64,000 bases of DNA, taken from the NCBI GenBank assembly GCA_009903795.1, contig WYER01000031.1, positions 40,080 through 104,079 of the forward strand, written 5' to 3'. Every line of letters starts with the position of its first letter. Position 1 is the stretch's first letter. Source of the DNA: Nitrososphaerota archaeon. GTDB lineage: Archaea; Thermoproteota; Nitrososphaeria; Conexivisphaerales; UBA164. A program made the position numbers and the translations under genes. Shown here in pieces: positions 6,765-36,247 of the stretch. The notes beneath the pieces are model-generated. The model ran no database searches. It was not told the DNA's origin and was given only the letters and a program-made list of their open reading frames with translations.

Positions 6765-7241
6765 TTACGTTTTTGAACGTTTTTGCGCGATTAATAATTT
6801 GATTAAGGCATCAAGCTTGTGGTAAAGGTCTTCTACTGTCCCTTCGTTTTGCAAAAGAACGTCGTAAGGCAAATCGTCTTCGTTTGAGGGGTCGAGGCGC
6901 ACTACGAGAAACCCGAGCGATTTTACGGCGCCGTAATCATTACGCCACCGTAAATCATCTATCACAATGTCAGCATCTTTCGGAAGCATTTCAATTTTTC
7001 GCGTAACGTATTTTATCCAAACGTTGGGGTCTATTTCGCGCAATTTTTCGTGCAAGGCTTGAATAAGGTCTTGAGGCTTTTCTCCTTTTTCAAAGCGCTC
7101 GGGGAAGAATTCGTGCGCAAATTCAATTAGCTTTCCCGTGAAAGAAATTTTAACAAACCCGTAAGTTCTCAAGAGGTAGTTTGCCGAAGTTGTCTTTCCA
7201 GAACGCGATTTTCCTGCGAATGCGATCCGGAGCCCGTACAT
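6765..7241 (-). CDS. P-loop kinase, dNMP-kinase-like (paralog 1)
   Basis: MYGLRIAFAGKSRSGKTT (Walker A) ... IVIDDLRWRNDY. Start moved from TTG 7250 to ATG 7241, 21 nt after the T/A box. Paralogous to 7527-8030. Confidence 0.5.
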   Translation of the reverse strand: MYGLRIAFAGKSRSGKTTSANYLLRTYGFVKISFTGKLIEFAHEFFPERFEKGEKPQDLIQALHEKLREIDPNVWIKYVTRKIEMLPKDADIVIDDLRWRNDYGAVKSLGFLVVRLDPSNEDDLPYDVLLQNEGTVEDLYHKLDALIKLLIAQKRSKT

Positions 7242-7276
7242 GTTTTTCAATGTGAAAGCGCTTTAAAAACGTAAAG

Positions 7277-7534
7277 TCAGTCTTCGTCAAGGTTCAAAAA
7301 GTGCAACGCTTCGCTCAATAATTGCAGGTTCTTTGTTTGTAAGTATTCGTCCGTTGTGTCTAGCAAAATGTCGATTAAGAGGTCGAGTCCAAGGTCTGCA
7401 CCTGTTTCTGCAAAGTGCTGTAAGATAAGGATTGCTCCTTCAACGAATTTGCGAAACTGTTTGTTCTTTTCGTGTTCGGACGCTTCTTTCATGTACTGTA
7501 TCGCTTCTTCTAAAGAAAGTTCACTTTCAATCAT
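7277..7534 (-). CDS. hypothetical acidic helical protein
   Basis: 85 aa ORF. Its start overlaps the stop of the upstream paralog by 8 nt (operon-like). Confidence 0.35.
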   Translation of the reverse strand: MIESELSLEEAIQYMKEASEHEKNKQFRKFVEGAILILQHFAETGADLGLDLLIDILLDTTDEYLQTKNLQLLSEALHFLNLDED

Positions 7535-8030
7535 TTTTACTCAGCATCTCCACGATTTTGTCAAGTTCCGCGTAAAGGTTCTCAAAGGTGCTCGTGTTAT
7601 AAATTATCCAGTCGTAGGGCATTTTGTCTACTTCGAGTTCACTTTGATGATTTGAGAAAGGTGAAGGTGGAACGTTTCTTATAATGCGGACTACGAAAAA
7701 TCCTTCGTTCTTCAAAGCTTTGTATTCGTTTAAGAAGCGTAAGTCGTCTATTGTAATGTTTGTTTCTTTCGGGAGGCTTTTGATTTCTCGCAGAACGTAT
7801 TTTACCCAAACGTCTTCATCTATTTCTCGCATTTTGATGCCTAGGTCTTGAAGTAATTTTCGCGGTTTCTCTCCTGACTCAAATTGCTCGGGAAACAGAT
7901 CGCGTGCTATTTCTTTGAGTTTGTCCGCGAATGCGAGCTTAACAAAACCGTATTTGAGAACTAGGTAGGTTGCTGAGGTTGTTTTTCCAACCTGCATTTT
8001 TCCCGAGAACGCAATTCTAAGCCCTTGCAT
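7527..8030 (-). CDS. P-loop kinase, dNMP-kinase-like (paralog 2)
   Basis: MQGLRIAFSGKMQVGKTT ... ITIDDLRFLNEY. T/A box 20 nt upstream. Confidence 0.5.
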   Translation of the reverse strand: MQGLRIAFSGKMQVGKTTSATYLVLKYGFVKLAFADKLKEIARDLFPEQFESGEKPRKLLQDLGIKMREIDEDVWVKYVLREIKSLPKETNITIDDLRFLNEYKALKNEGFFVVRIIRNVPPSPFSNHQSELEVDKMPYDWIIYNTSTFENLYAELDKIVEMLSKND

Positions 8031-8866: not shown

Positions 8867-9217
8867 TCACAAAATTTTAATTTGAGGATAAAGCGAAAGA
8901 GCGAGCAAAAATATTCCCAAAAGAGCAAAGCCTGTGTTCAAAAAAGGATTGTTGTATCGAAAGTGTGCGAGTGCGAAACGTTTCGTGAAGATAAAAATTC
9001 CTCCTTCTGTAATTGAATCTAAAAATAGGTGTGAAAGTGCTGAAATGAAACCTTGAAGCGCGAAAATAACGAAAGAGAAGGGCAAGTTCACGTATTGAAA
9101 CCCGAAAGCGAGCAAAATTCCTAGAACGATGCCTAAAGCAGAACCTGTAAAGATCGAATGCGTTACCCACGTTCTTCGTGTCCCGAACCCTTTTCTCTCA
9201 TGTCCCGCGTGATCCAT
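8867..9217 (-). CDS. YdjM/DUF457-like membrane-bound metal-dependent hydrolase (N-terminus unresolved)
   Basis: SHLFLDSIT motif and TM helices. The frame stays open upstream to about 9312 (..LITHYIFAIGLLAF..) with no ATG/GTG/TTG, so the true start is unclear or damaged. Confidence 0.45.
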   Translation of the reverse strand: MDHAGHERKGFGTRRTWVTHSIFTGSALGIVLGILLAFGFQYVNLPFSFVIFALQGFISALSHLFLDSITEGGIFIFTKRFALAHFRYNNPFLNTGFALLGIFLLALSLYPQIKIL

Positions 9218-9999: not shown

Positions 10000-10020
10000 T
10001 GGAATAATATAATTGAAGGG

Positions 10021-10028
10021 TTTAAAAA
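10021..10028. promoter_or_regulatory. central T/A box (tttaaaaa) shared by divergent starts at 9999(-) and 10049(+)
   Basis: gggtttaaaaatc. It lies 21 nt from the minus-strand ATG and 20 nt from the plus-strand GTG. The same geometry recurs at 32145-32152. Confidence 0.5.
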
Positions 10029-10048
10029 TCAAAATCGCCTTATCTTTT

Positions 10049-12784: not shown

Positions 12785-15700
12785 TACTTGTTGGAATAGT
12801 ATTTGTTCACGGGTACAGTTATCGGACTTTGAACGCTCCAGCTTACTGTTCCCGATAAGCCTGTGAACGTAATGCTTTGCCCTGCTTGAGCCGTTTGTGA
12901 TTGTCCGTTTACTGTTACTGTCCACGTTACTGGTTGTCCTGTAACTGGGTTTGTGGAAGGCAGACCTGATTCAGTGAAGGTTAATGAATACGTATTAGGT
13001 GGAGCTTGAACGGTTATTGTTATTGTTTGTGAATTAGCCGTGTTTCCTGTTTTCGCGTCTTGGATTTCAATATACGTGCTATACGTTCCTGCTTGCGAAA
13101 AAGTGTATTGAATGGTCGCGCTAGCGCTCGGTCCTACTGTATTTCCTACGGGATTACCGTCAACGTATAGTGTGAAATAATAGCTTCCTGAACCGCCAGA
13201 ACCTGAAGCCGAGTAGGTAACCGTAAGAGGTTGAGTGCCTGAAGTCGGGTTTGCAGAAGCCGTAACACTCAAACCTTTATAGAACGTTATTGTCTGAGAA
13301 CCCGTGTTTGAGAACGAGCCTGTCGAAGGTGTTCCCGAATAGCCCGAAGGATTAATCACGCCCCATGTGTATGTTTGTCCTGTCGCGAAAGTTTCGGTAA
13401 GGCTCGTGCCTGTTGTATAGTATGATTGCCCGTTTACTGTTACGCCCCATTTCGTTCCGCTAGGTAATCCGCTTTCATACCACGTGTACTGGAAGCTCGT
13501 TTGAGTAAACGTTATTGTCTGAGAACCAGGACCTGAGAAAGATCCTGAAGCAGGCGAACCTGAATAGTCTGTCGGATTAATCACGCTCCACGAATAAGTC
13601 TGTCCCGCGCTGAACGTTTCTGTCAAGCTCGAACTTGTAGTGTAATAGTTATTACCGTTTACCGAAACTCCCCACTGAGTCCCGCTCGGAAGCCCGCTTT
13701 CTGTCCACGTGTAGTTAAACGTCGAGCTTGAAGGAACGTAATTAATACTCACGGTCGCGTTTGTTGTCACTGAACCTGAAGAAGGTACAGCAACGTAAAC
13801 ATATTTAACGACGCGATTGTAAAACGTGACGCTCGTAGGTGAAATTTGCCAATTGTAAGTTCCTGGAGGCAAGTAGAACGTTACTGTCGGTTGAGTAAGA
13901 GTGTTTCCTGATTGAGATTGCCCGTTGCTTAACGTAATAGTAAAGCCGATAACAGAAAGAGCGTTTGTGCTTACTGTAAACTTCAAGTAGGTTGTGTATT
14001 TATAGTTAGCAGTAACAGAACCCGTGCCTCCTGTATCAACAATATCTATCGGGTTGTTGTTTGCAGAATACCCTCGTGCAGGCTGAACAAATCCCGTGAA
14101 GCTCCACGAAGTAAATGCATAGCCTGAATTCGGGTTGTCAGTCAGTTGAAGCTTCGTTCCCCACGTTACATACACGGTCTGATTTTGCCCCGCGCTTACT
14201 GTTCCCGAAGAACTACCGTAAACATACCCTGAAACTAAAGACCACGAAACAGACCCACCTTGCCCAGCGTTAATTGTTACGGCATAATAAGGCACGTAAT
14301 TGACGGTAATAATGTTTGTATTATTCTCAGTATTGCCCGTGATTTCAAAGGTTACCGAATTGCTCGTCTTTGAAAGCACGTCTATTGCGCTCGTGGAGAT
14401 TGAAGAAGGAACGTAATATATGCTCCCTGCTTGTATAACAGGGAAAGTAATGTTATAAATGTAATACGAGTTTGTCGTGTAATCAAAGCCTGGTTCTTTG
14501 ATCGAAACAGGAGAGCCGTAAACAATGTTCGTGCTTTGCTTTTGCCCGTTCTGATAAATCACAAAGCTCCACGATTGCCCGCTCGGTAACCCGCGTTCAC
14601 TAATGTAATCGATAAAGTTAAACCACGTGAGATAGACAGTAATATTTCCAGGCGCGTTCACTTGCGTAAGAACATTATAAACGTATGTGTTGCCCGATGT
14701 AGTCTTTGTGATTGAATTGTAATTGATTGAAATGCCCGACGGTGCAGTGATTGAAGAACTGTAAGGTTGAGCAATGTAATAATCTTCTTCAGGTGTAAGT
14801 TCGAATGTTTGATAACCCCCAGCTGGAACCCATACTGTCTGTGGGTTTGAAAAACCGTAATTAGGGATGAAAAACACGTTCACTTCGTAATATGTTGAAT
14901 ATGAAATTTGTTGGGTTACGTTTTGAGTACCGACTGAAATAGTACCGCTCGCTTGTGAAGTCTGATACTTTGTTCCACCTGACGTGTAAGACGGCATTAC
15001 AGAGTAGGATAAGGTCGTGTCTTGAGGAATTCCTGTGAATACTATCGGGTTAGGAGTAGTCGCCTGTTCTGTCACGCTTCCTAACTTTGCCCACCACGTA
15101 ATTCCATTTGGAAGCCCTGTTTCTGTAAAAGTCACAGTATACGTATGTCCTAAATAAGTAATGCCTTGCTCAAACGTCCCATTGTTGCCCGAAGATAACG
15201 TGAAGTAGCCTGAAGATGGGTTTGCCGATGCATTAGCAGTCCCGTAAAGCGAGGTATATGTTAGCACAGGAGTAATGTTCCATGAATAAGAACCAACAGG
15301 TATTCCTTTCCACTTGAACGTAGCAACAGCATAAGAAAATAGAATATTGGCAGACGTAAGAGTTTGAGTTTGCGTTTGCTTGGTACCATTCGGGAAAGTT
15401 AAAGTTAAAGAAACAGTCTCACCATCAGCCCATATAGGAGCCGAAACGTCAAACGTCACAGAAGTTTGCACGACAATCGGATAAAGCTTAAACCATGGAC
15501 CGTTATATGCTTGCGCAAAACTATTTGATGGCAAATTAAAAGTCCACGGGTTTGAAGACGAAGTATATTCCACATTCGAACGCACATTACTTATTTCTAG
15601 CATATACCATTCAGTAAACACGTAACCCGAGAGAGGGGTATCATAGAAAGACGGAGAACTTCCTGCGGGGAAGTAGACAGATGTTGAAGAAGGAGGCGAT

Positions 15701-16557
15701 TCAACAACACCTTGAAGCTGAAAGTTTAGGTTCTGAAAAGGTAATGTCCACGACACTTTTGATTCGCCTGGTTCGATAGTTACAGATATTCCCCAAGCCC
15801 AATCGTTCGCGCTCCAAATTGTTCCTGATTCGTAGAGCCATGGCTTCGGAGATTGCCACGTGATATACGCGTATTTCATTTCAAGCCCGTTAGGATCGTA
15901 AACTGTAAATAATTCTTTATTAGCATAATAAAGAACTGAACCCGAATATTTTAAAGAAACAGAACCGCTCACGACAGTAGAACTTCCTACGGGTTGTACT
16001 TCTACATTAAGCGTAAAACTATTTTGTGAAACGAGCGAAGGTGGGACTAGCGAGTTATTGTTTGCAAAAGCAACCCCTCCGACAAATGAAATGTAATATT
16101 CATGTGAAGTTGTGATATAATCCCAGATCGCAGGATCTATAATAGTCAATTTCACAGGGAAAAACGCAATCGCAGTAATAGAAGTAGTGACGTCGTTAAA
16201 GGTTAAAGTTTGCGAAGTTGAAAAAGTGAATTTTGTTGAAGACGTGATCATTGAATAAGGCTCAAACGTGTAATTCCACCCATAGAATCCGAAGCCGTTG
16301 TCAGGAATCGCGGTAAACGTGACAGACGCTCCTTCTGGTATCTTAATCGTTTCTATCGTAGACGTATTGAAAGGACCATACGTAACGCCCCCATAAGTGT
16401 ATGTGATTTCAACAATGCCTCCAGGGTCGTTCTTTGCTGTAACCGTAACGTATTTCGTAGCCAAAGGATGCGCGAAAGAAACATTTGAAACCGCGATAAT
16501 GCTAAGTAAGATAAAAGCTATTAGAACCAAAACTTTTAGTAAAGCGATTTTTTGCAT
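12718..16557 (-). CDS. giant secreted repeat protein (signal peptide, GLPxGxxW beta-modules, PKD-like domain)
   Basis: 1279 aa. N-terminus MQKIALLKVLVLIAFILLSIIAVSNVSFA. Repeated (F/Y)TESGLPSGT.W modules. PKD-like LSVTASANPTSGTQPLTVTYSASGSGG. Many N-x-S/T sequons. Confidence 0.75.
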   Translation of the reverse strand: MQKIALLKVLVLIAFILLSIIAVSNVSFAHPLATKYVTVTAKNDPGGIVEITYTYGGVTYGPFNTSTIETIKIPEGASVTFTAIPDNGFGFYGWNYTFEPYSMITSSTKFTFSTSQTLTFNDVTTSITAIAFFPVKLTIIDPAIWDYITTSHEYYISFVGGVAFANNNSLVPPSLVSQNSFTLNVEVQPVGSSTVVSGSVSLKYSGSVLYYANKELFTVYDPNGLEMKYAYITWQSPKPWLYESGTIWSANDWAWGISVTIEPGESKVSWTLPFQNLNFQLQGVVESPPSSTSVYFPAGSSPSFYDTPLSGYVFTEWYMLEISNVRSNVEYTSSSNPWTFNLPSNSFAQAYNGPWFKLYPIVVQTSVTFDVSAPIWADGETVSLTLTFPNGTKQTQTQTLTSANILFSYAVATFKWKGIPVGSYSWNITPVLTYTSLYGTANASANPSSGYFTLSSGNNGTFEQGITYLGHTYTVTFTETGLPNGITWWAKLGSVTEQATTPNPIVFTGIPQDTTLSYSVMPSYTSGGTKYQTSQASGTISVGTQNVTQQISYSTYYEVNVFFIPNYGFSNPQTVWVPAGGYQTFELTPEEDYYIAQPYSSSITAPSGISINYNSITKTTSGNTYVYNVLTQVNAPGNITVYLTWFNFIDYISERGLPSGQSWSFVIYQNGQKQSTNIVYGSPVSIKEPGFDYTTNSYYIYNITFPVIQAGSIYYVPSSISTSAIDVLSKTSNSVTFEITGNTENNTNIITVNYVPYYAVTINAGQGGSVSWSLVSGYVYGSSSGTVSAGQNQTVYVTWGTKLQLTDNPNSGYAFTSWSFTGFVQPARGYSANNNPIDIVDTGGTGSVTANYKYTTYLKFTVSTNALSVIGFTITLSNGQSQSGNTLTQPTVTFYLPPGTYNWQISPTSVTFYNRVVKYVYVAVPSSGSVTTNATVSINYVPSSSTFNYTWTESGLPSGTQWGVSVNGNNYYTTSSSLTETFSAGQTYSWSVINPTDYSGSPASGSFSGPGSQTITFTQTSFQYTWYESGLPSGTKWGVTVNGQSYYTTGTSLTETFATGQTYTWGVINPSGYSGTPSTGSFSNTGSQTITFYKGLSVTASANPTSGTQPLTVTYSASGSGGSGSYYFTLYVDGNPVGNTVGPSASATIQYTFSQAGTYSTYIEIQDAKTGNTANSQTITITVQAPPNTYSLTFTESGLPSTNPVTGQPVTWTVTVNGQSQTAQAGQSITFTGLSGTVSWSVQSPITVPVNKYYSNKYYANPSSGTASSSETISITYST
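13273..13719 (-). repeat. two adjacent 74-75 aa modules (about 225 bp each) inside the giant protein
   Basis: FNYTWTESGLPSGTQWGVSVNG... compared with FQYTWYESGLPSGTKWGVTVNG.... Coordinates derived by counting codons back from the stop. Confidence 0.75.
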
Positions 16558-17162: not shown

Positions 17163-17816
17163 TTATAGGGGATAGTTCGGTGTCCAAGGAATTTGAGTTT
17201 CGTACGCGCTTCCATTTGAAAAATAAAACCAAATTGGAAGCCCCTGTCCTATTGTTGACGCGTTCCAAACAATAACCGTTGAATGTGGAGGTATATTAAC
17301 GTATGCTATTTCAAACGAAGTTGCGTTGCCTTGCCACGCCTGTGAATAATGCGTTTCATTGGTAGTCCAAGGAGCAGGTAAAGGCGCTGGAGTATCTCTT
17401 CCTTGAGGTAAATAAATTACGATCTTCACGATAGGCACGTTCGCATTATTAGTCACGTTAAGGGCATACAATTCTGTGAAAGCTTTGCATGAACCGTACC
17501 ACGTGAACACGCCTGAACCCATAGGTTGCGTCGCATTCCATCCCACGCCCAACGTTCCCCACGCACCAGTGTCATTTCCTGTAATATAGTGCGTGTTTCC
17601 GTTGAACAAAACTTCTTCTCCTACATTAAAGGAGACAGGCGGTTTGGGTGGAGGAGGCACGCCTACTAACCCTCCTGTCAGTTTGTATGCTTCTTGTCCT
17701 GCTTGAGTTTCAAGGGCTAAAAAGCTTGCTGGATTTGCTATGAAGGCTATGATGCCTGCTGAGAGTATTATTAGTGCGAGTATCCCGATGCCCGCTAACG
17801 CTAGACCTTTGTTCAT
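17163..17816 (-). CDS. secreted or anchored glycoprotein-like protein
   Basis: N-terminal anchor MNKGLALAGIGILALIILSAGIIAF, a PPPPKPP linker and many N-x-S/T sequons. Confidence 0.45.
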   Translation of the reverse strand: MNKGLALAGIGILALIILSAGIIAFIANPASFLALETQAGQEAYKLTGGLVGVPPPPKPPVSFNVGEEVLFNGNTHYITGNDTGAWGTLGVGWNATQPMGSGVFTWYGSCKAFTELYALNVTNNANVPIVKIVIYLPQGRDTPAPLPAPWTTNETHYSQAWQGNATSFEIAYVNIPPHSTVIVWNASTIGQGLPIWFYFSNGSAYETQIPWTPNYPL

Positions 17817-17919
17817 ACGAATAAATTATAGAACGCTTATATATAAGCACGACGTTCTCTCGCAAAAATCTTTTGCTCGCTCGCTTTCGGGCTTTTAAAG
17901 CTCTTTCACATGAAAAACC

Positions 17920-19167
17920 GTGAACGCTTTAGGAGGCGACACTTACCTTTTTGCTGAAATAGACGGGAAATATGGAGTCTTCACATTGAAAGAACTGTAT
18001 GAACTGCATAATCAAGTGCATAAAATTAGAGTGCCGACTCTTTTGAATGAAAGAGGAGAGAAAACTTGGGTCGAAGTCGAAGGCGTGGTAAGTTTCGGAA
18101 TGCAACCTTTGAAACGAATAACGCTTTCTAGATCGAGGCTTTATACAGAAGCTTCTGAAAATACAACAATTCCCGCATACAGCCCTAATCTTTTTTCAGG
18201 AATAGAAGAACAAATAAAAATGAGGTTAAAATCTGTGAACGAGTTGAACGTCACACAAGACCACAGATACAACGATACTTTCTTGCTTACAATGCGTTTT
18301 CCTTTAAATTTGCCTGAAGGGGATCAAACTGATTGGGAGTATGGTTTTACGCTTGGATTCTTTTTAAGTGAAGGAAATTTAGAATACAGAAAGCACAAAA
18401 ATACGAAACAATCTTTAGCAACTTTAAACGGTTTAGCAAGAAAAAAAGGAATGACACTCGAGGAATACTTGAATTACATGACAGATATACAACGGGTGTC
18501 TCTAGCAATCGGGCGGTCAGATTTTGAACGCGGGTATGTGGGTATACTAAAAAAGCATTTCAAGTTTACGACATTTCGCAAAGTTAGTGAAAACGGTTAC
18601 GAGATTTTCTCATCTGATTTGTCTTTAATTCATATGATTAAAAATTATACGGAAGGAGAAACTTCTCATAACAAACACGTAAAGAATGAAGTGTACAATC
18701 GATCGTGGAAATTTTTAGAAGGAATATTAGACGGCTTCTTAGCAGGCGATGGAAGTTTTCATAAGAATGCGGATTTATTTCAAGTCGGAATTACAACGAA
18801 CTACCGTCTTTATAATGATCTCATTTTTCTTTCAAAAACTTTAGGATATGATATTCATTTACATAATGGACGTTTTACAAAAAGTCCCGCTGGCAAGCTT
18901 TTTTATGAATTAAGTTTATCCATCTCAAAAAACTGGCACAGGCATTCAGCTTTGGGTTTAGTTCGTGAGCATATTAAAAAGATTGAGGATGTAGGCGAGA
19001 AGGAGGCTTTTAATTTAGTTTTGAAGCCTTTGTATCCTGAAAACGATAGGCGTGCAAAGTTTAATCATTTGTTTTTTACTGCTTTTGGAATTTTGGTTTC
19101 GGATGCTGTGAAGGTTTTGGATCGGAGTGTTTTGAATTTTTCTTTGCCTGTGCTTGTTTCGGAGTGA
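17920..19167 (+). CDS. free-standing intein-like protein: Hint blocks plus LAGLIDADG endonuclease, splicing residues replaced
   Basis: MN-ALGGDTYLF (block A, with Ala where Cys1 is expected). LAGLIDADG blocks LGFFLSEGN and LDGFLAGDGSF. C-terminal block FFTAFGILVSD-A (expected VHN followed by C/S/T). GTG start 20 nt after a T/A box. Confidence 0.65.
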   Translation: MNALGGDTYLFAEIDGKYGVFTLKELYELHNQVHKIRVPTLLNERGEKTWVEVEGVVSFGMQPLKRITLSRSRLYTEASENTTIPAYSPNLFSGIEEQIKMRLKSVNELNVTQDHRYNDTFLLTMRFPLNLPEGDQTDWEYGFTLGFFLSEGNLEYRKHKNTKQSLATLNGLARKKGMTLEEYLNYMTDIQRVSLAIGRSDFERGYVGILKKHFKFTTFRKVSENGYEIFSSDLSLIHMIKNYTEGETSHNKHVKNEVYNRSWKFLEGILDGFLAGDGSFHKNADLFQVGITTNYRLYNDLIFLSKTLGYDIHLHNGRFTKSPAGKLFYELSLSISKNWHRHSALGLVREHIKKIEDVGEKEAFNLVLKPLYPENDRRAKFNHLFFTAFGILVSDAVKVLDRSVLNFSLPVLVSE

Positions 19168-19180
19168 GTGGCGTCTATTT

Positions 19181-19245
19181 TTTGATTATTTTTCAAAATT
19201 TTGACATTATTTCAGATTTATGGCTCGATTCAAAGGCAAAATTCG
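19181..19245 (+). promoter_or_regulatory. 3 x 19 bp iteron array (copy A) upstream of gene 19270
   Basis: tgattatttttcaaaattt / tgacattatttcagattta / tggctcgattcaaaggcaa, directly followed by gtttttaaag and the ATG at 19270. Confidence 0.6.
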
Positions 19246-19269
19246 AGTTTTTAAAGAAACTTTGCATTA

Positions 19270-19725
19270 ATGGGTACAATGTTAGACAGAGCATTTCGAA
19301 TGTGGTTAGTAGTTGAAAATGAACAGGACAAAAAATGGATGGAAGACGTAAAGAAAAAAACGTTAGACATCCATCCGTACAAGTCTTTGAAAATAAAATT
19401 CAAACACCTTAAGCCGTTTTTAACATTTAATTATTTGCAAATAGGATATCTCGGGAACAATGAAGATGCAATGCTTTCTGGCTTCAAGTACATTAATGGA
19501 GATAAGTATCAGTTATGCAATTTCAAGCCTGAAACGACAATTAATATGATGTACTTTAAGCCTTTCTGGAAACAGTTAACAAAAAATTTCAAAATTCATT
19601 CTAAAACCGACATAACAATACATTATTATCAAAACGAGCCTGTCTGGTTTGAAGTTTCGCAATTCGATGAAAACGGGAATGAAGAAAAGCGCATCGGAAT
19701 TATTTTGCCGTCAACGTATTACTGA
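19270..19725 (+). CDS. hypothetical protein (paralog of 19858-20292)
   Basis: 151 aa. Shares W(L)(V/A)(V/I)E.E.DKK..E..K.KTLD..PYK and an EPVWFEV/QPVWVEV C-terminal motif with the neighbouring gene. Confidence 0.45.
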   Translation: MGTMLDRAFRMWLVVENEQDKKWMEDVKKKTLDIHPYKSLKIKFKHLKPFLTFNYLQIGYLGNNEDAMLSGFKYINGDKYQLCNFKPETTINMMYFKPFWKQLTKNFKIHSKTDITIHYYQNEPVWFEVSQFDENGNEEKRIGIILPSTYY

Positions 19726-19726
19726 A

Positions 19727-19792
19727 CGATTTTTCGCGATTTTTTATTTATTTTTTTGGTTTTTCAAAACGCTTAGTTTAGAGTATCGTTTC
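19727..19792 (+). terminator. shared terminator-like cassette T1
   Basis: cgatttttcgcgattttttatttatttttttggtttttcaaaacgcttagtttagag. Confidence 0.5.
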
Positions 19793-19857
19793 TTCGTTTT
19801 TTAAGAGATCTTTGTATTACAGGTTACAATGACTGAGACAAACGTAGGTGAGAAAAA

Positions 19858-20292
19858 ATGTTAGATCCAGCCCATATTTGGTTGGCAATTGAGACTGAAG
19901 AGGATAAGAAACGAGCAGAAGAGATTAAACAAAAAACCCTAGATGTGCTTCCATACAAAACAATAGAAAAAGAATACAATATGCTTAAACAATATCTAGT
20001 TCTTCATGAGCTTCAAATAGGACGCATAGAAGGAAAAAATTACGACATAATAGCAGGTGAGCTTGAAATCGACGGTTTAGTCTTTAAAGTAAACGGATTC
20101 ATTCCAACAGTTACATTAGGTGCAGATCATTTCAAAAGGTTATTAGAATATCTAACTAAAGACATTCATCCTAAGCGCTTTGTAAAAGTAAAAATAATGT
20201 ACTGTTGCAAAGATCAACCAGTATGGGTAGAAGTCAGAGGACGTTATGGAGAGACCGCCATAGGAGTGATTGCACCTAAAAGAAAAGACTGA
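19858..20292 (+). CDS. hypothetical protein (paralog of 19270-19725)
   Basis: 144 aa. ggtgag 7 nt upstream of the ATG (SD-like). Confidence 0.45.
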   Translation: MLDPAHIWLAIETEEDKKRAEEIKQKTLDVLPYKTIEKEYNMLKQYLVLHELQIGRIEGKNYDIIAGELEIDGLVFKVNGFIPTVTLGADHFKRLLEYLTKDIHPKRFVKVKIMYCCKDQPVWVEVRGRYGETAIGVIAPKRKD

Positions 20293-20396: not shown

Positions 20397-20520
20397 TCAA
20401 GCATTGCATTATTGTGGTCGTTATAAAAGTGATGCTTGAATATTCTGTCTTTAAGGAATATGAATGTTATATTGCAAATGAAAGTATGCATTTGTTAGTT
20501 TTATGATAAAAAAGTGAATT

Positions 20521-20583
20521 CTCTTTTCTGACGATTTTTCACAAATTAGACGCAATTTCAGATTTTCGACCCGATTCAAAAAG
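20521..20583 (+). promoter_or_regulatory. 3 x 19 bp iteron array (copy B) upstream of gene 20657
   Basis: ctcttttc tgacgatttttcacaaatt / agacgcaatttcagatttt / cgacccgattcaaaaagaa. Confidence 0.6.
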
Positions 20584-20656
20584 AACAGGGCTTTGCTTAG
20601 GGTTTAGAAGGTTCAAAGCCTCTCGGGGTTTTTAAATAACTTTTACATCATCCAGC

Positions 20657-21040
20657 GTGAGGGCAACAAGCCTTGAACTCGATCTAAAAGCAAAATCAAG
20701 AGCCTTAGCTGTCCGACTTTATAGAGAAAAAGGCATTCCTTCTCATATAATTGCGCAAGCTTTTAGGGAAAACGGTATTCCTATTTCGACGAAGACTGTG
20801 TTGAAAGCAGTGAGGCTCGCGACTAATGGCTCAGGGGTTCGAGGCTTCGATCCTTTTCACGGAAGGCAGACTTATAAGTGGACAAAGTTTTTGGGAAAGT
20901 ATAGGAATTGGAAAATAATAGGAAAAATAACTGCTCCTCTGCAACGCATTATGGAAGCCTTCTGGAAGTGGTTCGCGTACTCGAGGCTCTACGGAATCTT
21001 CGATCTCGATGCTGTAATGAGAGGTGAGCGCCCGCCCTAG
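20657..21040 (+). CDS. hypothetical protein, possible HTH
   Basis: 127 aa. GTG start 20 nt after ggtttttaaat. GIPSHIIAQAF..GIPISTKTVLKAV resembles an HTH (weak). Confidence 0.35.
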   Translation: MRATSLELDLKAKSRALAVRLYREKGIPSHIIAQAFRENGIPISTKTVLKAVRLATNGSGVRGFDPFHGRQTYKWTKFLGKYRNWKIIGKITAPLQRIMEAFWKWFAYSRLYGIFDLDAVMRGERPP

Positions 21041-21671: not shown

Positions 21672-21732
21672 CTCCAAGCTAAGTGAAAATAAAAAAATCA
21701 AAAAAATAATAAAGAAAAAATCGCGAAATTCA
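21672..21732 (-). terminator. shared terminator-like cassette T5
   Basis: On the gene strand: gaatttcgcgattttttctttattatttttttgatttttttattttcacttagcttggag. Confidence 0.45.
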
Positions 21733-22551
21733 AGAAGTTTGTGCTTCTTGTTCTCTTATGAATTCTTCGAAGATTTTAGTTGCTTTTAGTGACCAGTCAA
21801 ACCTCGTGCTTGTCTTGAGTTTCCTGTGTGATATTTGATAGGTTATGTCATTGTACGCTTCCCACAAATTCTTCGGGACAAAGTTTTGAACGACCTTCTT
21901 TTTTCCGAGAGCTACTACGTCCTTAATGATAGGCGCAGGGAATGTTCTTGCTAAGATCTCGGCTAATTGCTGGTTGACTTTGTATTGTTTGAATTGTCTG
22001 AAGAGCTCAAGCTTTTGTTCAAACGTGTCCTGTAAAAGTTTTGCTTTTTCTAAGAATGATTCTTTCATCATTTCAACAATGTAGGACTTTTCGACGGTTG
22101 CAATTTTACTGTCTTCTGCACGCATAAGCCCGTTTGAGCAAACTAAACGAAGCAGTGAAACGTCTATCCTAAAATTACCGAGAACATTGTGGCGGACTCC
22201 AATTCCCCACGCGACTAAGTCCCCGACTTCTACCTCTCCTTTTATTTGCGATGAGATAAGGGTTGCCATGTATTTTATTCCGTCGTTGCTTTCTTCCTTT
22301 ATCTCCATGTTTAATTCTTTCGCGGCCTCGTGCGTTATATTTTTTGCAACTTCAGTCGGGACGGGGATAAAAGACCAGCTTTTCACGACGTTTTGCACTC
22401 CTTTTGGGGTAGGCAAAGAAACGATTTGATACCGCTTCGGCTTTCCTTCAAAACTCCCGTAATATTGCATTATCCCGTATTTTTCCCAATTTCTTTCAAC
22501 CTCTGTCACTTCAAAATGCATACTGTTTGAAATTATTTCTGCCTGTGTCAT
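21730..22551 (-). CDS. DUF932-like protein (phage/plasmid-associated family)
   Basis: 273 aa. LRLVCSNGLM resembles the R.VC.NG signature as I remember it for DUF932. Confidence 0.5.
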   Translation of the reverse strand: MTQAEIISNSMHFEVTEVERNWEKYGIMQYYGSFEGKPKRYQIVSLPTPKGVQNVVKSWSFIPVPTEVAKNITHEAAKELNMEIKEESNDGIKYMATLISSQIKGEVEVGDLVAWGIGVRHNVLGNFRIDVSLLRLVCSNGLMRAEDSKIATVEKSYIVEMMKESFLEKAKLLQDTFEQKLELFRQFKQYKVNQQLAEILARTFPAPIIKDVVALGKKKVVQNFVPKNLWEAYNDITYQISHRKLKTSTRFDWSLKATKIFEEFIREQEAQTS

Positions 22552-22646: not shown

Positions 22647-23594
22647 GTGTTAGAAAGCAGGGTTCGTGAAAGCATTAAAATTTTGAAGGACGCATCTCGT
22701 TCCTACTCTTTACCGTGGGCTTTAGGCTTTTCAGGTGGAAAGGATTCAACAACGGCTCTTTCTCTCACTCTGAAAGCAAAAGAAGAAGGCGCGGAAATTT
22801 CAAAGCTTTACGTTATTTATGCGGACACGATGCTCGAACACCCTTTTCTTAGAAAAAAGTCTTTAGAAGCGCTCGAAAGCTTGAAAGCGTTTGAATGGCT
22901 CAAGGCTGTTGTAGTGAAAGCGAGGGAAGGAGAGGACTTCATTTCAATGATGGTTGACAAAGGATATCCTGCGCCTTCGATCTTCAATAGGTGGTGCATG
23001 GCGCGTTTGAAAATTTATCCCGTTCGCAGGTTTCTTAGACAGATAGGAAAGCGCGTAATGGTTTTGGGCGTTCGTTCTGACGAAAGCGCGAGAAGGAAAG
23101 CAACAATAGGAACGGAGCCTTTGATAGTGAAAAGGAACGAAATAGACGTGCGACCTTTGATTAAGTGGACAAAATTCGACGTTTTTGAATACTTGCTAAA
23201 CACGAAAAGGTGGGATGGAGAAAGTTTCGATTACGTGTTCGAGCTTTACGTTGAAGAATGCGGTTTCAACCCTGACGTTCCTTGCGGGACTTCTGACGTG
23301 CGCTTCGGTTGTTGGGTTTGCACTTTGGTTAATCAGGAAAAGATGCCTGTAAGCGAAACATTGAAGAAGGTGCGAGTAGGTCTTAAGGAAATTTCTTCAA
23401 AGCGCGAGAATAGAATTATAGACGAGAACGGAAACCCGAGGCGCTTGAATTTAGAAGGACGTAAGAAGGTTGCGGAGCTTTTTTTAGAGGCTTTAGAAAA
23501 GGAGCCTGAAGCTTTCGGTTACGACGTCGGGGCTTTGAAGAACAAGCTTGAGACGTTTTTAAAAGACGCGCGGGAAAAGACCCTTTCTCTCTGA
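22647..23594 (+). CDS. PAPS reductase-family PP-loop protein, DndC/IbrA-like
   Basis: LGFSGGKDSTTAL (PP-loop). C-terminal CGTSDVRFGCWVCT cysteine motif. GTG start 20 nt after cttttaaag. Confidence 0.6.
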   Translation: MLESRVRESIKILKDASRSYSLPWALGFSGGKDSTTALSLTLKAKEEGAEISKLYVIYADTMLEHPFLRKKSLEALESLKAFEWLKAVVVKAREGEDFISMMVDKGYPAPSIFNRWCMARLKIYPVRRFLRQIGKRVMVLGVRSDESARRKATIGTEPLIVKRNEIDVRPLIKWTKFDVFEYLLNTKRWDGESFDYVFELYVEECGFNPDVPCGTSDVRFGCWVCTLVNQEKMPVSETLKKVRVGLKEISSKRENRIIDENGNPRRLNLEGRKKVAELFLEALEKEPEAFGYDVGALKNKLETFLKDAREKTLSL

Positions 23595-23935: not shown

Positions 23936-25786
23936 ATGGCTTCGCTTGATGTTGAAAGTTTAAAGGGACATATTTTTGTGGTAGGGGCGACGGGTTCGGG
24001 AAAGTCCACACTCTTAGTCTTTCTCATGAAATACATTCACGAGAACATGAAAGATGCTTCTGTTATTTTCATAGACCCACACGGCGACGCTTCTATTCAA
24101 ATCGCTTCGCTCGTCGAAAACCCAACGCTCTACGATCCTATCTACTCACCTTTCGCTCTTAACCCGATGGATCTAGGCTCTTACAAAGACGAAAGCGAAA
24201 GAACGTACTTAGTTCAAAGGCGCGTTTCGGAGCTCGTTAATATGTTGAACGAGCTTTTCGGGGTAGAACAGAGCAGAGCACCTAGGCTTTTGTGGATCTT
24301 CAGGGGCTTGCTTTACTACTTATACTCGATTACGGACACTCCTACCTTTTTAGACCTTTACACGCTCCTTTCAGACCTTTTGAAAGACCCGAACGAAATC
24401 CGGACTTTAATGAAATCCTCGGGCTTGGACGATGAAATAATTAAAAACACGATCGAAGCGATTTCATCTTTGCCTCCTGAGGCTTTCACGGCTGTGCTTA
24501 ACAGGATCTCAGGCTTTGTAATGCCCGCAGGCTCTCTAACTTCGAAAACTTTCAACACGAGGAAAACGAGCGTGGAGTGGAATAAAATGCTGGAGCCTAC
24601 ACAAGTAACGATCTTTCGCATCCCTCGTTACGCGCTCCCCGATGACTTTCGTAAGATCTTAACTTCGACAATCGTGATGGACTTGTTTTTTGCAATCGAG
24701 AAGAGGAAGAACGACGGGAAACCTATCACGCCTGTATACTTAGTAATCGATGAATTTCAGAACGTTGCTGACTTAGACATTTTAGACGTTATTTTTTCAG
24801 AAGCAAGGAAATTCGGTTTGTTTCTAGTAATAGCGCATCAGCACCTCCTTCAAGTTAACGATACGCTTTTGCATTCTATTCTAAGCAATTCAAGGCTCAT
24901 TATCGCTTTTCGTTTAGGACCCGAAGACGCGGAAAAGCTCGCGAAGGCTATGGGTAATTTGAATTTGAAAGAAACGCTCACGAACCTTCCGAACTACACG
25001 GCTTTAGTTAAATACATCGACAAGCACTACATAATGAAAACAAAGGACGTTCCTCAAGGTAACCCTGAAATCTTGAAAAAGCTATCGAAAAAAGTAGAAC
25101 TCAACGAAGACAGGATCCCCGTGTATTACGTTACAAAATCAAAATACCCTGCGCCTCCTTTTACGCCTTTGAGGTGGACTGTACTTTCGTTTATTTATAC
25201 TAACGGTCCTCAGGTTTCTTACGAGCGCGTGAAGAACGAAATGTTCCGCAAGTACGCGTGGGACGAAAGCCTAACTCTCTCTGCTTTGAATTATTTACAA
25301 GACAAAGGGCTGATAAAAGCCGTAAGAACAGCGGACGGGGTATTTTACGAAGTCACGCCTCACGGTCTTACGTATTTCAAGCCTCGCGACGTGTTTTCGA
25401 AAAGAGCGGGAGGGGCATTGCATAACGCGATGGTCGGCGAAATTTACAGAAGGTCTATCGAGAATGGCTACTGGGTTGAAGTTGACGACGGGAATAGCTT
25501 TGAAGAAAAGCCTGACCTTCTGGTTTTCATGCCTATGGAAAACACGAGTGTAGAACGCGGAGGTCTCGTGAAGAACATTCGCAGTTTGGAAGAGTGGGGA
25601 ATACCTGTCGCTTATGAGATAGAAACGCTTTCGAACTCTTCAGAACAAATAAAGAAGAACCTATACAAAAACTTGAGCAAAGGTTATCGCGTTGTATTTG
25701 TCGTGGAGAACGAAGAGAACGCAAAGAGAATTCGCGAAATTTTAGGCGAGGGAAACTATGAAGTGATAGTGCTTTCGACGTCGTGA
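23936..25786 (+). CDS. T4SS coupling-protein/HerA-like ATPase fused to a wHTH and a PD-(D/E)xK-like C-terminal domain
   Basis: Walker A VVGATGSGKST, IFIDPHGD, Walker B VYLVIDEFQ, ARKFGLFLVIAHQ. wHTH-like LNYLQDKGLIKAVRTADGVFYEVTPHG. C-terminus has EKPDLLVF...AYEIET. Confidence 0.6.
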   Translation: MASLDVESLKGHIFVVGATGSGKSTLLVFLMKYIHENMKDASVIFIDPHGDASIQIASLVENPTLYDPIYSPFALNPMDLGSYKDESERTYLVQRRVSELVNMLNELFGVEQSRAPRLLWIFRGLLYYLYSITDTPTFLDLYTLLSDLLKDPNEIRTLMKSSGLDDEIIKNTIEAISSLPPEAFTAVLNRISGFVMPAGSLTSKTFNTRKTSVEWNKMLEPTQVTIFRIPRYALPDDFRKILTSTIVMDLFFAIEKRKNDGKPITPVYLVIDEFQNVADLDILDVIFSEARKFGLFLVIAHQHLLQVNDTLLHSILSNSRLIIAFRLGPEDAEKLAKAMGNLNLKETLTNLPNYTALVKYIDKHYIMKTKDVPQGNPEILKKLSKKVELNEDRIPVYYVTKSKYPAPPFTPLRWTVLSFIYTNGPQVSYERVKNEMFRKYAWDESLTLSALNYLQDKGLIKAVRTADGVFYEVTPHGLTYFKPRDVFSKRAGGALHNAMVGEIYRRSIENGYWVEVDDGNSFEEKPDLLVFMPMENTSVERGGLVKNIRSLEEWGIPVAYEIETLSNSSEQIKKNLYKNLSKGYRVVFVVENEENAKRIREILGEGNYEVIVLSTS

Positions 25787-36125: not shown

Positions 36126-36172
36126 TAAATTAATATTTTATAAGGGAAGAATAAAAACCTAGCACTCAAAAT

Positions 36173-36247
36173 GGGGCCGGTGGGATTTGAACCCACGACC
36201 GCCAGCGCCCCAGGCTGGCATCCTAGACCAGGCTAGACGACGGCCCC
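36173..36247 (-). tRNA. tRNA-Pro, anticodon GGG
   Basis: Hand fold of the reverse complement: GGGGCCG/CGGCCCC acceptor stem, CCAGC-CTGGGGC-GCTGG anticodon arm, GTGGG-TTCAAAT-CCCAC T arm. No encoded CCA. Confidence 0.9.

What the first reader, a model, noticed from the sequence alone, without database searches (positions are those of the whole stretch)
17920..19167. Free-standing, splicing-dead intein-like LAGLIDADG endonuclease (HO-like domestication?)
The ORF begins MN-ALGGDTYLF, an intein block A with Ala in place of the nucleophilic Cys/Ser. It has TEAS where block B TxxH is expected. It carries two LAGLIDADG blocks (LGFFLSEGN, LDGFLAGDGSF). It ends its Hint domain with GILVSD-A instead of VHN followed by C/S/T. 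There is no extein: only two residues precede the Hint domain, about 20 follow it, and the gene has its own T/A box 20 nt upstream. So this is a Hint plus homing-endonuclease protein that cannot splice and is expressed on its own. That is reminiscent of yeast HO, which derives from an intein. I do not know of a described archaeal counterpart, and I cannot check that here.
Basis: partly seen in the sequence, partly recalled or inferred. Interest (0 to 1): 0.6.

Follow-up and report, generated by a model that had tools for sequence, protein, structure and literature searches.

The report
Free-standing splicing-dead intein endonuclease gene
This archaeal gene encodes a complete intein (protein-splicing fold plus DNA-cutting domain) that has no host protein and has lost every splicing residue; it sits as an optional cassette in a mobile genomic island, a prokaryotic parallel to the yeast HO/WHO genes.

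Summary
Window 17920-19167 (+) is a 415-aa ORF with a GTG start, an in-frame TGA two codons upstream and a TTTTAAA box 21-27 nt upstream.

It aligns end to end (residues 3-396, E down to 1e-54) with true inteins inside N6/N4 DNA-methyltransferases. A confident AlphaFold model (pLDDT 90) matches whole endonuclease-containing inteins such as TliVMA, PI-PfuI and PI-SceI.

Every splicing residue is replaced across more than 100 homologues:
- Cys1 to Ala
- block-B His to Ala/Thr
- block-F Asp to Asn
- terminal His-Asn to Ser-Asp
- +1 Ser/Cys to Ala

Both LAGLIDADG acidic residues (E151, D277) are invariant. Both Hint halves are under purifying selection (dN/dS 0.11-0.21). The 19-aa tail evolves almost neutrally. 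No extein remnants flank the gene.

The "HO-like domestication" reading is not supported. Among syntenic islands the gene is intact in 16 loci, absent in 15 and decayed in 3. Other cassettes can fill the same hot spot, and the gene also occurs at a second site and in two copies. Its first two codons (Met-Asn) and its promoter duplicate those of the downstream gene.

The best reading is a mobile, accessory, extein-less intein homing endonuclease, closer to yeast WHO elements than to HO. I found no described prokaryotic counterpart. Cleavage activity and the target site are untested.

The parts
17893..17899 (+). TATA-like box (TTTTAAA) 21-27 nt upstream of the GTG. This implies a leaderless or near-leaderless transcript. 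The motif CGGG(T/C)TTTTAAAG is conserved upstream of the gene in related loci.
17920..19167 (+). Whole ORF for the extein-less intein-derived LAGLIDADG endonuclease (415 aa, GTG start, TGA stop). An in-frame TGA lies at 17911-17913.
17920..17925 (+). Codons 1-2 (GTG AAC, Met-Asn). These are the same two codons that start the downstream gene fam6 in islands lacking the endonuclease. They are part of a ~40-nt promoter-plus-start duplication that brackets the cassette in related loci.
17926..18294 (+). N-terminal Hint half (aa 3-125). Ala3 stands at intein position 1, where true relatives have Cys. Block B SENT (18154-18165) stands where relatives have T-x-x-H. dN/dS 0.21.
18295..18969 (+). LAGLIDADG endonuclease domain (aa 126-350). 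Motif 1 is at 18343-18378 with E151. Motif 2 is at 18721-18759 with D277. Both acids are invariant in 72 aligned sequences. dN/dS 0.21.
18970..19107 (+). C-terminal Hint half (aa 351-396). Block F has FNLVL with N365, where relatives have Asp. Block G is FGILVSD|A, where relatives have GNGIWTHN|S/C. dN/dS 0.11.
19108..19164 (+). Tail of 19 residues after the Hint fold. It varies in length and sequence between homologues, has dN/dS 0.68 and is disordered in the model (pLDDT below 50). It is not a functional extein.
19167..19267 (+). Spacer (19167-19234) plus promoter (19247-19267) that follows the endonuclease gene. The unit is repeated at 20513-20580 and 20628-20648 in front of fam6. The same spacer is what remains in the 'long empty' sites of islands without the gene.
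17163..17816 (-). fam3, a 217-aa pilin-like gene (MNKG|LALAG...) transcribed divergently. It is the left boundary of the variable hot spot and was used to recover 56 syntenic loci.
19270..20292 (+). Two paralogous accessory cassette genes of unknown function (fam5; 19270-19725 and 19858-20292). They lie between the endonuclease gene and fam6.
20657..21040 (+). fam6 (127 aa), the conserved right boundary of the hot spot. In islands without the endonuclease it sits 105 or 230 bp from fam3.

Best explanation
The gene encodes a complete two-domain intein (Hint fold plus nested LAGLIDADG endonuclease) that has escaped from a host protein. It is now made as a stand-alone protein from its own TATA-box promoter.

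Its ancestors were inteins in N6/N4 DNA-methyltransferase genes. Splicing is impossible and irrelevant. The N-terminal nucleophile, block-B His, block-F Asp, terminal His-Asn and the +1 nucleophile are all replaced, and there is nothing to ligate.

The protein most likely still acts as a site-specific, metal-dependent DNA endonuclease. That is inferred from the two invariant LAGLIDADG acids and the purifying selection. The Hint domain is probably kept as a structural and DNA-binding platform, as in PI-SceI and HO; this too is inferred.

At the DNA level the gene behaves as an optional, movable cassette. It lies in a variable hot spot of an integrated pilus/conjugation-type island of hot-spring archaea. 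It sits directly upstream of a resident gene, and the resident gene's promoter, start codon and Asn codon are duplicated on either side of it, so the resident gene stays expressed.

The most likely mode of persistence is that of a free-standing homing-endonuclease gene. It would cut related islands that lack it and be copied in during repair. This resembles yeast WHO elements and phage 'intronless homing'. Cleavage, the target site and actual gain events are not shown.
For: Shown:
- End-to-end homology (profile positions 3-396) to inteins embedded in PF01555 methylases, E 1.5e-54 and weaker.
- True relatives read W-x-K|C-L...T-x-x-H...Y-D-I-E...G-N-G-I-W-T-H-N|S/C. The family reads M-N|A-L...S-E-D-A...F-N-L-V...A-F-G-F-L-V-S-D|A.
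- AlphaFold model with pLDDT 89.9. It matches the TliVMA intein (E 7e-17, TM 0.63/0.71), PI-PfuI and PI-SceI. The central domain matches I-DmoI and the Hint part matches the PolII mini-intein.
- E151 and D277 are invariant in 72 sequences.
- dN/dS is 0.21 (Hint-N), 0.21 (LAGLIDADG), 0.11 (Hint-C) and 0.68 (tail).
- No extein remnants in the window.

Optional-cassette behaviour:
- In 56 loci recovered through the neighbouring gene fam3, the endonuclease gene is intact in 16, decayed in 3 and absent in 15, with fam6 then directly adjacent. Other cassettes replace it in 5.
- At least 11 presence/absence changes are needed on the fam3 tree of 39 loci.
- Endonuclease and fam3 distances are only weakly coupled (Mantel r 0.29).
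- There is a second insertion site upstream of fam7, and contigs with two copies or a remnant.
- Copies at the other sites form one clade nested within site-A copies.
- Promoter, start codon and Asn codon are duplicated around the cassette.

The closest precedent, extein-less intein-like homing genes transcribed on their own, is described in PMC7282813.
Against: - No cleavage data and no identified target site.
- Both kinds of empty site can be explained by deletion alone. The 'short' form could arise by recombination between the duplicated promoters. The 'long' form could be a precise ORF deletion that leaves an orphan TATA box. Gains by homing are therefore not demonstrated.
- All endonuclease alleles differ by at least 22% in protein sequence. 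There is no sign of very recent spread.
- The promoter-plus-start copy next to fam6 in occupied loci is nearly identical to the naive site. It is not an obviously cleavage-resistant duplicate of the WHO kind.
- Strong purifying selection and the constant position beside the adhesin/pilin module would also fit a useful, domesticated function.
- Most data come from short metagenomic contigs.
Confidence: 0.6

Rival explanations
1. Domesticated nuclease in the HO sense. The island uses the extein-less intein for its own life cycle. It might make a site-specific break that starts DNA transfer, excision or integration, or gene conversion of the adjacent pilin and giant-adhesin cassette. It would no longer propagate itself.
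For: - Purifying selection acts on all three structural parts.
- More than 100 intact homologues have uniform length and start.
- The gene always lies next to a pilin-like gene plus giant PKD/Flg_new_2 protein module, at both site types.
- The island carries TraG/VirD4-like and TrbL-like genes, but I saw no relaxase.
Against: - The gene is absent from 15 of about 39 informative syntenic loci, with the neighbours intact.
- It is decayed in 3 loci and replaced by unrelated cassettes in 5.
- Its distribution on the neighbour-gene tree is sporadic.
- Some contigs hold two copies.
- There is no added domain comparable to HO's zinc finger.
Confidence: 0.22
2. A non-cutting DNA-binding protein, such as a regulator of the downstream operon. 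This would be a LAGLIDADG scaffold that has lost catalysis, as in WhiA.
For: The gene sits at the head of gene cassettes and shares their promoter architecture. WhiA (3hyi) appeared among weak fold matches of the first, poor model.
Against: Both metal-binding acids at the ends of the LAGLIDADG helices are invariant in 72 sequences across two lineages. With the good model the best structural matches are active intein endonucleases and I-DmoI, not WhiA.
Confidence: 0.08
3. Still a processing intein. This would be an Ala1 (class 2/3-like) intein that splices or self-cleaves a tiny host peptide (MN ... AVKVLDRS...).
For: Inteins that start with Ala are known to splice (Mja KlbA class; my own knowledge). 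A few inteins end in Asp or Gln. One member of the second lineage ends ...VQ|C.
Against: - Block-B His, the penultimate His, the terminal Asn and the +1 nucleophile are all absent in nearly every member; the +1 residue is Ala in 60 of 67.
- The tail is near-neutral (dN/dS 0.68), variable in length and disordered.
- The N-side 'extein' is only two residues.
Confidence: 0.03
4. An inert remnant: a fragment of a disrupted intein-containing methylase gene, or a pseudogene on its way out.
For: Decayed copies do exist (L051/L009, L061, L062). One copy of the second lineage is split into 121 + 255 aa.
Against: - tblastn with twelve intein-bearing methylases finds only the intein part in the window, with no extein on either side.
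- An in-frame stop lies two codons upstream.
- The start and promoter are conserved.
- Overall dN/dS is 0.20 across 17 coding sequences.
Confidence: 0.03

Closest known systems
Yeast WHO elements and HO endonuclease (Coughlan et al. 2020, PMC7282813)
   Same: - Intein-like Hint plus LAGLIDADG proteins with no exteins and no splicing, expressed from their own genes.
- WHO genes lie beside a host gene rather than inside it. They are polymorphic, form clusters and leave pseudogenes.
- Integration keeps the host gene working by duplicating part of it.
- Here the cassette lies beside fam6 (or fam7). It is polymorphic and leaves remnants. It is bracketed by a duplicate of that gene's promoter, start codon and second codon.
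   Different: - There is no C-terminal zinc finger.
- The motif-G region is kept in sequence but with its catalytic residues replaced, whereas WHO and HO lack motif G.
- The duplicated piece is the 5' end (about 40 nt), not about 400 bp of the 3' end.
- The duplicate shows no sign of being cleavage-resistant.
- The origin is independent: methylase inteins rather than the VMA1 intein.
- The host is an archaeal mobile island.
- Unlike HO, the gene is not fixed.
True LAGLIDADG-containing inteins in N6/N4 DNA-methyltransferases (P0109, P0113, P0117, P0118 and others) and solved archaeal inteins (TliVMA 7qsu, PI-PfuI 1dq3, PI-SceI)
   Same: Same two-domain architecture along the whole length. Sequence identity to the methylase inteins is 25-32%. 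Blocks A, B, F and G and both LAGLIDADG motifs are recognisable. The fold match has TM about 0.6-0.7.
   Different: - Not inserted in any protein.
- Cys1, block-B His, block-F Asp, the terminal His-Asn and the +1 Ser/Cys are all replaced.
- Has its own promoter and start codon.
Free-standing homing endonuclease genes of phages (T4 seg/mob genes, F-CphI), which spread by 'intronless homing'
   Same: A stand-alone endonuclease gene wedged between conserved genes. It shows presence/absence polymorphism among relatives, and flanking markers are shuffled.
   Different: Those enzymes are GIY-YIG, HNH or similar and carry no Hint domain. This one is a full intein body. The host is an integrated archaeal island, not a phage.
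A second extein-less lineage found here (P0258, P0259, P0257). One member is annotated by NCBI as 'LAGLIDADG family homing endonuclease' in a Candidatus Heimdallarchaeaceae MAG.
   Same: - About 393-aa stand-alone proteins.
- Gly at intein position 1.
- They end ...GNGLVIQ-TKE* or ...GNGIIVQ-C*.
- Both LAGLIDADG acids are kept.
- An Asn precedes position 1, as here.
   Different: - Only about 26% identical.
- Nine extra N-terminal residues and almost no C-terminal tail.
- Chromosomal context next to a D12-class methylase.
- Few members, and one copy is split.

Membership tests
Intein (functional protein-splicing element) | In-frame insertion in a host protein whose homologues lack the insert | tested here: not met
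   An in-frame stop lies two codons upstream. Two residues precede and 19 near-neutral residues follow the Hint fold. No extein similarity is found in the flanks.
Intein (functional protein-splicing element) | Hint fold with blocks A, B, F and G | tested here: met
   End-to-end profile alignment to true inteins. AlphaFold model with pLDDT 89.9 matches the TliVMA, PI-PfuI and PI-SceI inteins and the PolII mini-intein.
Intein (functional protein-splicing element) | Catalytic residues: Cys/Ser/Thr at position 1, block-B Thr-x-x-His, C-terminal His-Asn, Cys/Ser/Thr at +1 | tested here: not met
   - Position 1 is Ala in 59 of 66 members.
- Block-B His is replaced by Ala or Thr.
- The terminal pair is Ser394-Asp395 (67/67 and 66/67).
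- The +1 residue is Ala in 60 of 67.
- True relatives have Cys, His, His-Asn and Ser/Cys at these positions.
LAGLIDADG homing endonuclease (single-chain, two-motif type) | Two LAGLIDADG helices, each ending in a conserved acidic residue followed by Gly | tested here: met
   GFTLGFFLSE151G and LDGFLAGD277G. E151 and D277 are invariant in 72 sequences.
LAGLIDADG homing endonuclease (single-chain, two-motif type) | Pseudo-dimeric alpha-beta-beta-alpha-beta-beta-alpha fold | tested here: met
   The central domain of the model aligns with I-DmoI (TM 0.61-0.65 of the target) and with the endonuclease domains of PI-PfuI and PI-SceI.
LAGLIDADG homing endonuclease (single-chain, two-motif type) | Site-specific DNA cleavage of a long target | not testable with these tools
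   This needs the purified protein and candidate substrates.
LAGLIDADG homing endonuclease (single-chain, two-motif type) | Mobility of its own gene (homing): sporadic presence at a fixed site | tested here: inconclusive
   Presence/absence at a fixed intergenic site is clear: 16 intact, 3 decayed and 15 empty, with at least 11 changes on the neighbour tree. But loss alone could produce both kinds of empty site.
HO-type domesticated intein endonuclease | Fixed cellular gene that no longer propagates itself and serves a host function | tested here: not met
   The gene is optional among syntenic islands, replaced by other cassettes, multi-copy in some contigs and leaves decayed remnants.
HO/WHO family | C-terminal zinc-finger domain fused to the intein-like region | tested here: not met
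   The protein ends 19 residues after the Hint fold. The tail is disordered and variable and has no Cys-x-x-Cys motifs.
WHO-type homing element | Element lies beside the host gene and carries a replacement copy of part of that gene, so that the host gene stays functional | tested here: inconclusive
   A ~40-nt duplicate of the promoter plus GTG-AAC of fam6 brackets the cassette. The second site shows ATG-AAC shared with fam7. The duplicate is nearly identical to naive sites, so resistance to cleavage is not evident.
WHO-type homing element | Allele-specific cleavage of the host gene by the encoded protein | not testable with these tools
   This needs a cleavage assay.

The most novel reading that the evidence does not exclude
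Archaea have independently evolved a 'third class' of homing element like the yeast WHO elements. It is an intein body that has left its host protein. It homes as a stand-alone gene into the 5' end of a target gene and brings a replacement promoter and start codon with it. On this reading the Hint domain has been exapted purely for DNA recognition. The many divergent alleles in a single hot-spring community would reflect an arms race between endonuclease and target, among competing conjugative islands.
Probability: 0.3. Interest if true: 0.78.

Novelty: new variant of a known kind. Interest (0 to 1): 0.62.

Why it matters
- Extein-less intein endonucleases have so far been described only in a few yeasts (HO and WHO). 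Those cases are used as the textbook example of how a selfish intein can be repurposed.
- A large archaeal family, plus a second lineage in Asgard MAGs, shows that this escape route is not a yeast oddity. The family has more than 100 clusters at 90% identity. Its members are 58-75% identical to the window protein.
- It gives an independent natural experiment on what a Hint fold is kept for once splicing is gone.
- It points to a way for homing genes to sit beside a gene rather than inside it in prokaryotic mobile elements.
- Practically, these proteins are annotated 'hypothetical' and fall below Pfam and NCBIfam thresholds.
- They are a ready-made panel of presumably thermostable single-chain meganuclease variants.

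Tried and rejected
- Single-sequence Pfam, NCBIfam and PDB sequence searches gave only sub-threshold hints: LAGLIDADG_3 E 0.085, intein_Nterm E 0.06, PolII intein E 0.1.
- The first AlphaFold run, on the shallow family alignment, was poor (pLDDT 59). Adding the second lineage and one true intein fixed it.
- GTDB representative genomes gave no hit. IMG/VR gave only distant relatives. PLSDB plasmids and INPHARED phages gave no hit.
- The third homologue search, seeded with true-intein segments, returned only one true intein, P0118.
- The afdb50 fold library was unavailable.
- I tested whether the move to the fam6 start could be ectopic homing driven by similarity to the methylase insertion site. 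I saw no similarity between ...TGGATAAAA|CATAACGCG (L007 methylase) and ...GCGTGAAC|TCAAGCC. The resident L007 methylase has His at +1, so it could not host a splicing intein there.
- I tested for a WHO-like cleavage-resistant duplicate. The duplicated promoter and start are almost identical to naive sites.
- I looked for a consistent link to a methylase gene. One is present in L007 and next to the second lineage. None was found in the window by tblastn with twelve intein-bearing PF01555 methylases. The idea of an R-M-like pairing was dropped.
- Presence/absence at the second (fam7) site could not be assessed. All fam7 loci in hand had been recruited through the endonuclease itself.
Full report
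**1. The observation**

Window 17920-19167 (+) is a 415-aa ORF that starts at GTG. An in-frame TGA lies at 17911-17913, so nothing can be translated upstream of Met-Asn. A TTTTAAA box lies at 17893-17899, 21-27 nt before the GTG. That is the spacing expected for an archaeal leaderless or near-leaderless transcript.

- MN|ALGGDTYLF at the N-terminus.
- GFTLGFFLSEGN at 18343-18378.
- GILDGFLAGDGSF at 18721-18759.
- GILVSD|A at 19087-19107, followed by 19 residues and the stop.

The only error is the register of block B. Alignment to true inteins places T-x-x-H opposite S79-E-N-T82, not T76-E-A-S79. The His is missing either way.

**2. Is it an intein body?**

Single-sequence searches were weak. 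The protein has 107 homologues in a 5.8-billion-protein collection. The full-length ones are 393-436 aa apart from one 527-aa fusion (P0003); shorter hits cover only part of the query. All are 58-75% identical to the window protein, and the full-length ones examined begin M/V-N-A-L-S-G-D-T. One is identical to the window protein and comes from an NCBI MAG labelled Thaumarchaeota.

A profile of 67 of them was scored against 1.84 billion cluster representatives. At 50% identity the family collapses to one full-length representative. The next hits (E 1.5e-54 to about 1e-38) are internal segments of 650-1090-aa proteins that align to profile positions 3/4 through 393-396. All ten hosts examined are PF01555 N6/N4 DNA methyltransferases, and seven of the ten also hit Pfam Intein_splicing.

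The junctions of these true inteins are canonical. They read ...W-x-K|C-L-x-x-x-T... at the start, with T/S/N-x-x-H in block B and Y-D-I-E in block F. They end ...Y-N-N-L-Y-F-L-G-N-G-I-W-T-H-N|S/C. The window family reads M-N|A-L-S-G-D-T..., S-E-D-A, F-N-L-V and ...F-N-H-L-Y-F-T-A-F-G-F-L-V-S-D|A.

The homology is therefore end to end, and each splicing residue is replaced:
- Cys1 to Ala (59/66; the rest are Ile, Gly, Thr or Ser).
- Block-B His to Ala/Thr.
- Block-F Asp to Asn365 (67/67).
- Penultimate His to Ser394 (67/67).
- Terminal Asn to Asp395 (66/67).
- +1 Ser/Cys to Ala (60/67).

An AlphaFold model built on a shallow alignment was poor. With a broader alignment it reached pLDDT 89.9 and pTM 0.88, and only residues 398-415 were disordered.

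Foldseek against the PDB gives whole endonuclease-bearing inteins first: TliVMA (E 7e-17, TM 0.63/0.71), PI-PfuI, PI-SceI and PhoVMA. The central domain matches I-DmoI and the Hint part matches the PolII mini-intein. In the viral structure library the top 50 matches are all inteins embedded in 537-1391-aa hosts, and none is free-standing.

**3. Is it a broken host gene?**

No. tblastn with twelve intein-bearing methylases hits only 17926-19107 in the window, with no extein on either side. Across 17 distinct coding sequences the median dN/dS values are:
- 0.21 for Hint-N.
- 0.21 for the endonuclease domain.
- 0.11 for Hint-C.
- 0.68 for the tail.

The tail also varies in length through shifting stop codons. 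The Hint fold is thus maintained by selection although it cannot splice. The 'C-extein' is read-through into spacer.

**4. Is the nuclease likely active?**

E151 and D277 close the two LAGLIDADG helices. They are invariant in 72 sequences, including a second lineage and a true intein. That argues for retained metal-dependent catalysis and against a WhiA-like non-cutting derivative. It is an inference, not a measurement.

**5. Genomic setting**

Window positions of about 2-26 kb look like an integrated pilus/conjugation-type island. The features are:
- A T2SSF/TadC-like protein.
- Giant Flg_new_2 proteins.
- A pilin-like 217-aa gene (fam3) transcribed divergently from the endonuclease gene.
- DUF932.
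- A PAPS-reductase-like gene.
- A TraG/VirD4-like ATPase.

Ordinary chromosomal genes (nadC, an MFS transporter, trp genes) start at about 27 kb. Related metagenomic contigs add TrbL-like, DUF1286, TFB and methylase genes. No hit was found in GTDB representative genomes, IMG/VR, PLSDB or INPHARED.

**6. Core gene or optional cassette?**

Using fam3 as an unbiased anchor I recovered 56 syntenic loci. The state of the site beside fam3 was as follows:
- Endonuclease gene intact in 16 loci, besides the window and L005.
- 5'-truncated or reduced to a remnant in 3 (L061, L062, L051).
- Absent in 15, with fam6 directly adjacent.
- Replaced by unrelated cassettes in 5, including a restriction-modification pair plus a tyrosine recombinase in L048.
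- The remaining loci were too short to score.

On a fam3 tree of 39 loci, presence/absence needs at least 11 changes. Endonuclease and fam3 distances are only weakly correlated (Mantel r 0.29). Some pairs are 12% apart in fam3 but 33% apart in the endonuclease, although the genes lie only about 100 bp apart.

The gene also occurs at other sites, upstream of fam7 and divergent from a TrbL-like gene. One contig has two intact copies. Another has an intact copy plus a decayed one at the fam3 site. Copies at these other sites form one clade nested within the fam3-site copies. This is the behaviour of an accessory, movable gene, not of an HO-like fixed gene.

**7. Anatomy of the insertion**

In 'short empty' loci, a promoter (CGGGTTTTTAAA...GC) drives fam6, which starts GTG-AAC-TCA (Met-Asn-Ser). 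In occupied loci a diverged copy of this promoter plus GTG-AAC drives the endonuclease (GTG-AAC-GCx-TTA, Met-Asn-Ala-Leu). After its stop comes a ~120-nt spacer, then a second copy of the promoter plus GTG-AAC, then the rest of fam6.

So the 'MN' in front of the Hint fold is the first two codons of the downstream gene. At the fam7 site the same holds: ATG-AAC|GCA-TTA versus ATG-AAC|AAG. There the cassette is also flanked by a 13-nt inverted repeat.

'Long empty' loci keep an orphan TATA box followed directly by the spacer. They look like precise deletions of the ORF. In the window the same spacer-plus-promoter unit is repeated before fam5 and before fam6.

Both empty forms could arise by deletion. 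The data therefore prove polymorphism and loss but not gain.

**8. Comparison with what is known**

The only extein-less intein-like endonucleases I could find in the literature are yeast HO and the WHO elements. WHO genes are independently transcribed and lie beside their host gene FBA1. They replace part of FBA1 on integration, are polymorphic and leave pseudogenes (PMC7282813).

The archaeal family shares the protein logic and much of the element logic. It differs in these ways:
- It has no zinc finger.
- It keeps a degenerate motif G.
- It duplicates a short 5' piece rather than a long 3' piece.
- It shows no evidence of a resistant duplicate.
- It arose from methylase inteins.

Phage free-standing homing genes behave similarly at the DNA level but have no Hint domain.

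I also found a second extein-less lineage (P0258, P0259, P0257). It is about 26% identical and about 393 aa long. It has Gly at position 1 and ends ...GNGLVIQ-TKE*. It occurs in Heimdallarchaeaceae MAGs next to a D12 methylase, and one copy is split. NCBI calls one member simply a 'LAGLIDADG family homing endonuclease'.

**9. Verdict**

The best explanation (confidence about 0.6) is a mobile or accessory extein-less intein homing endonuclease. Its Hint domain would be retained for structure and DNA binding. The main rival (about 0.2) is a nuclease that the island uses for its own transfer or cassette exchange.

It is a new variant of a known kind. The decisive experiments are cleavage assays on empty and occupied sites, and complete-island phylogenies.

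Noticed in passing
window 2000-26300: This stretch looks like an integrated pilus/conjugation-type genomic island. Its features are:
- T2SSF/TadC-like gene (4342-6255)
- DUF1286-like gene (8867-9217)
- two giant Flg_new_2 proteins (10013-12784 + and 12718-16557 -, convergent with a 67-nt overlap)
- pilin-like gene (17163-17816)
- DUF932 (21730-22551)
- PAPS-reductase-like gene (22647-23594)
- TraG/VirD4-like ATPase (23936-25786)

I saw no relaxase or integrase. Chromosomal genes (MFS, nadC, trp genes) follow from about 27 kb.
   Followed up: partly
window 678-1940 (-): An IS605 OrfB / TnpB (Cas12f-like TNB domain) gene lies at the left edge of the island. Homologues also lie near the endonuclease in L004 and L007.
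   Followed up: no
window 19270-19725 and 19858-20292 (+): Two paralogous small genes (fam5, 151 and 144 aa) have no family match. They are themselves optional cassettes in related loci. They are bracketed by a repeated 68-nt spacer (19167-19234 / 20513-20580, 75% identical) plus a repeated promoter (19247-19267 / 20628-20648).
   Followed up: partly
window 6765-7250 and 7527-8030 (-): Two neighbouring ORFs have weak to moderate similarity to deoxynucleotide monophosphate kinase (PF21448). That is an unusual cargo for an archaeal island.
   Followed up: no
window 36172-36247 (-): The single tRNA gene in the window lies about 10 kb beyond the apparent island edge. I did not check it as an attachment site.
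   Followed up: no
L069 7577-8768 and L070 3499-4690 (GCA_018238545.1 / GCA_018238645.1): A second lineage of extein-less intein endonucleases is split here into 121-aa and 255-aa ORFs. It sits divergently next to a D12-class adenine methylase in an otherwise housekeeping neighbourhood. Full-length members (P0258, P0259) start MVSHILRTSN|GLGG... and end ...GNGLVIQ-TKE* or ...GNGIIVQ-C*.
   Followed up: partly
L048 200-4274: At the same hot spot beside fam3, this contig carries a tyrosine recombinase, a 354-aa putative restriction enzyme and a 298-aa N6/N4 methylase instead of the endonuclease. The site is a general landing pad for accessory or defence genes.
   Followed up: no
L007 10311-11924 (-): An island-borne N6/N4 methylase lies about 1.6 kb downstream of the endonuclease gene. 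It is homologous (45% in the N-extein) to the hosts of the closest true inteins. Its intein site is empty (...ILWIK|HNAIPT) and has His, not Ser/Cys, at +1.
   Followed up: partly
protein P0003 (ENA contig, 527 aa): One family member is fused in frame, through loss of its stop codon, to a C-terminal ribbon-helix-helix domain (PF16777/PF07878).
   Followed up: no
L001 6050-7300 (+) and 16718-17300 (-); L009 325-1545 and 4510-4694: One 20-kb contig has two intact, convergently oriented copies that are 67% identical over the 191 aa of overlap. Together they enclose a DUF1286-TFB-giant adhesin block. Another contig has an intact copy plus a frameshifted remnant (aa 57-118) at the fam3 site.
   Followed up: partly
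L004 8565-8700 and 9921-10000; L009 and L001 equivalents: At the second insertion site the cassette is flanked by a 13-nt inverted repeat (ATTAGGTAAACAC ... GTGTTTACCTAAT) just upstream of the two ATG-AAC starts. It could be a protein-binding or recombination site.
   Followed up: no
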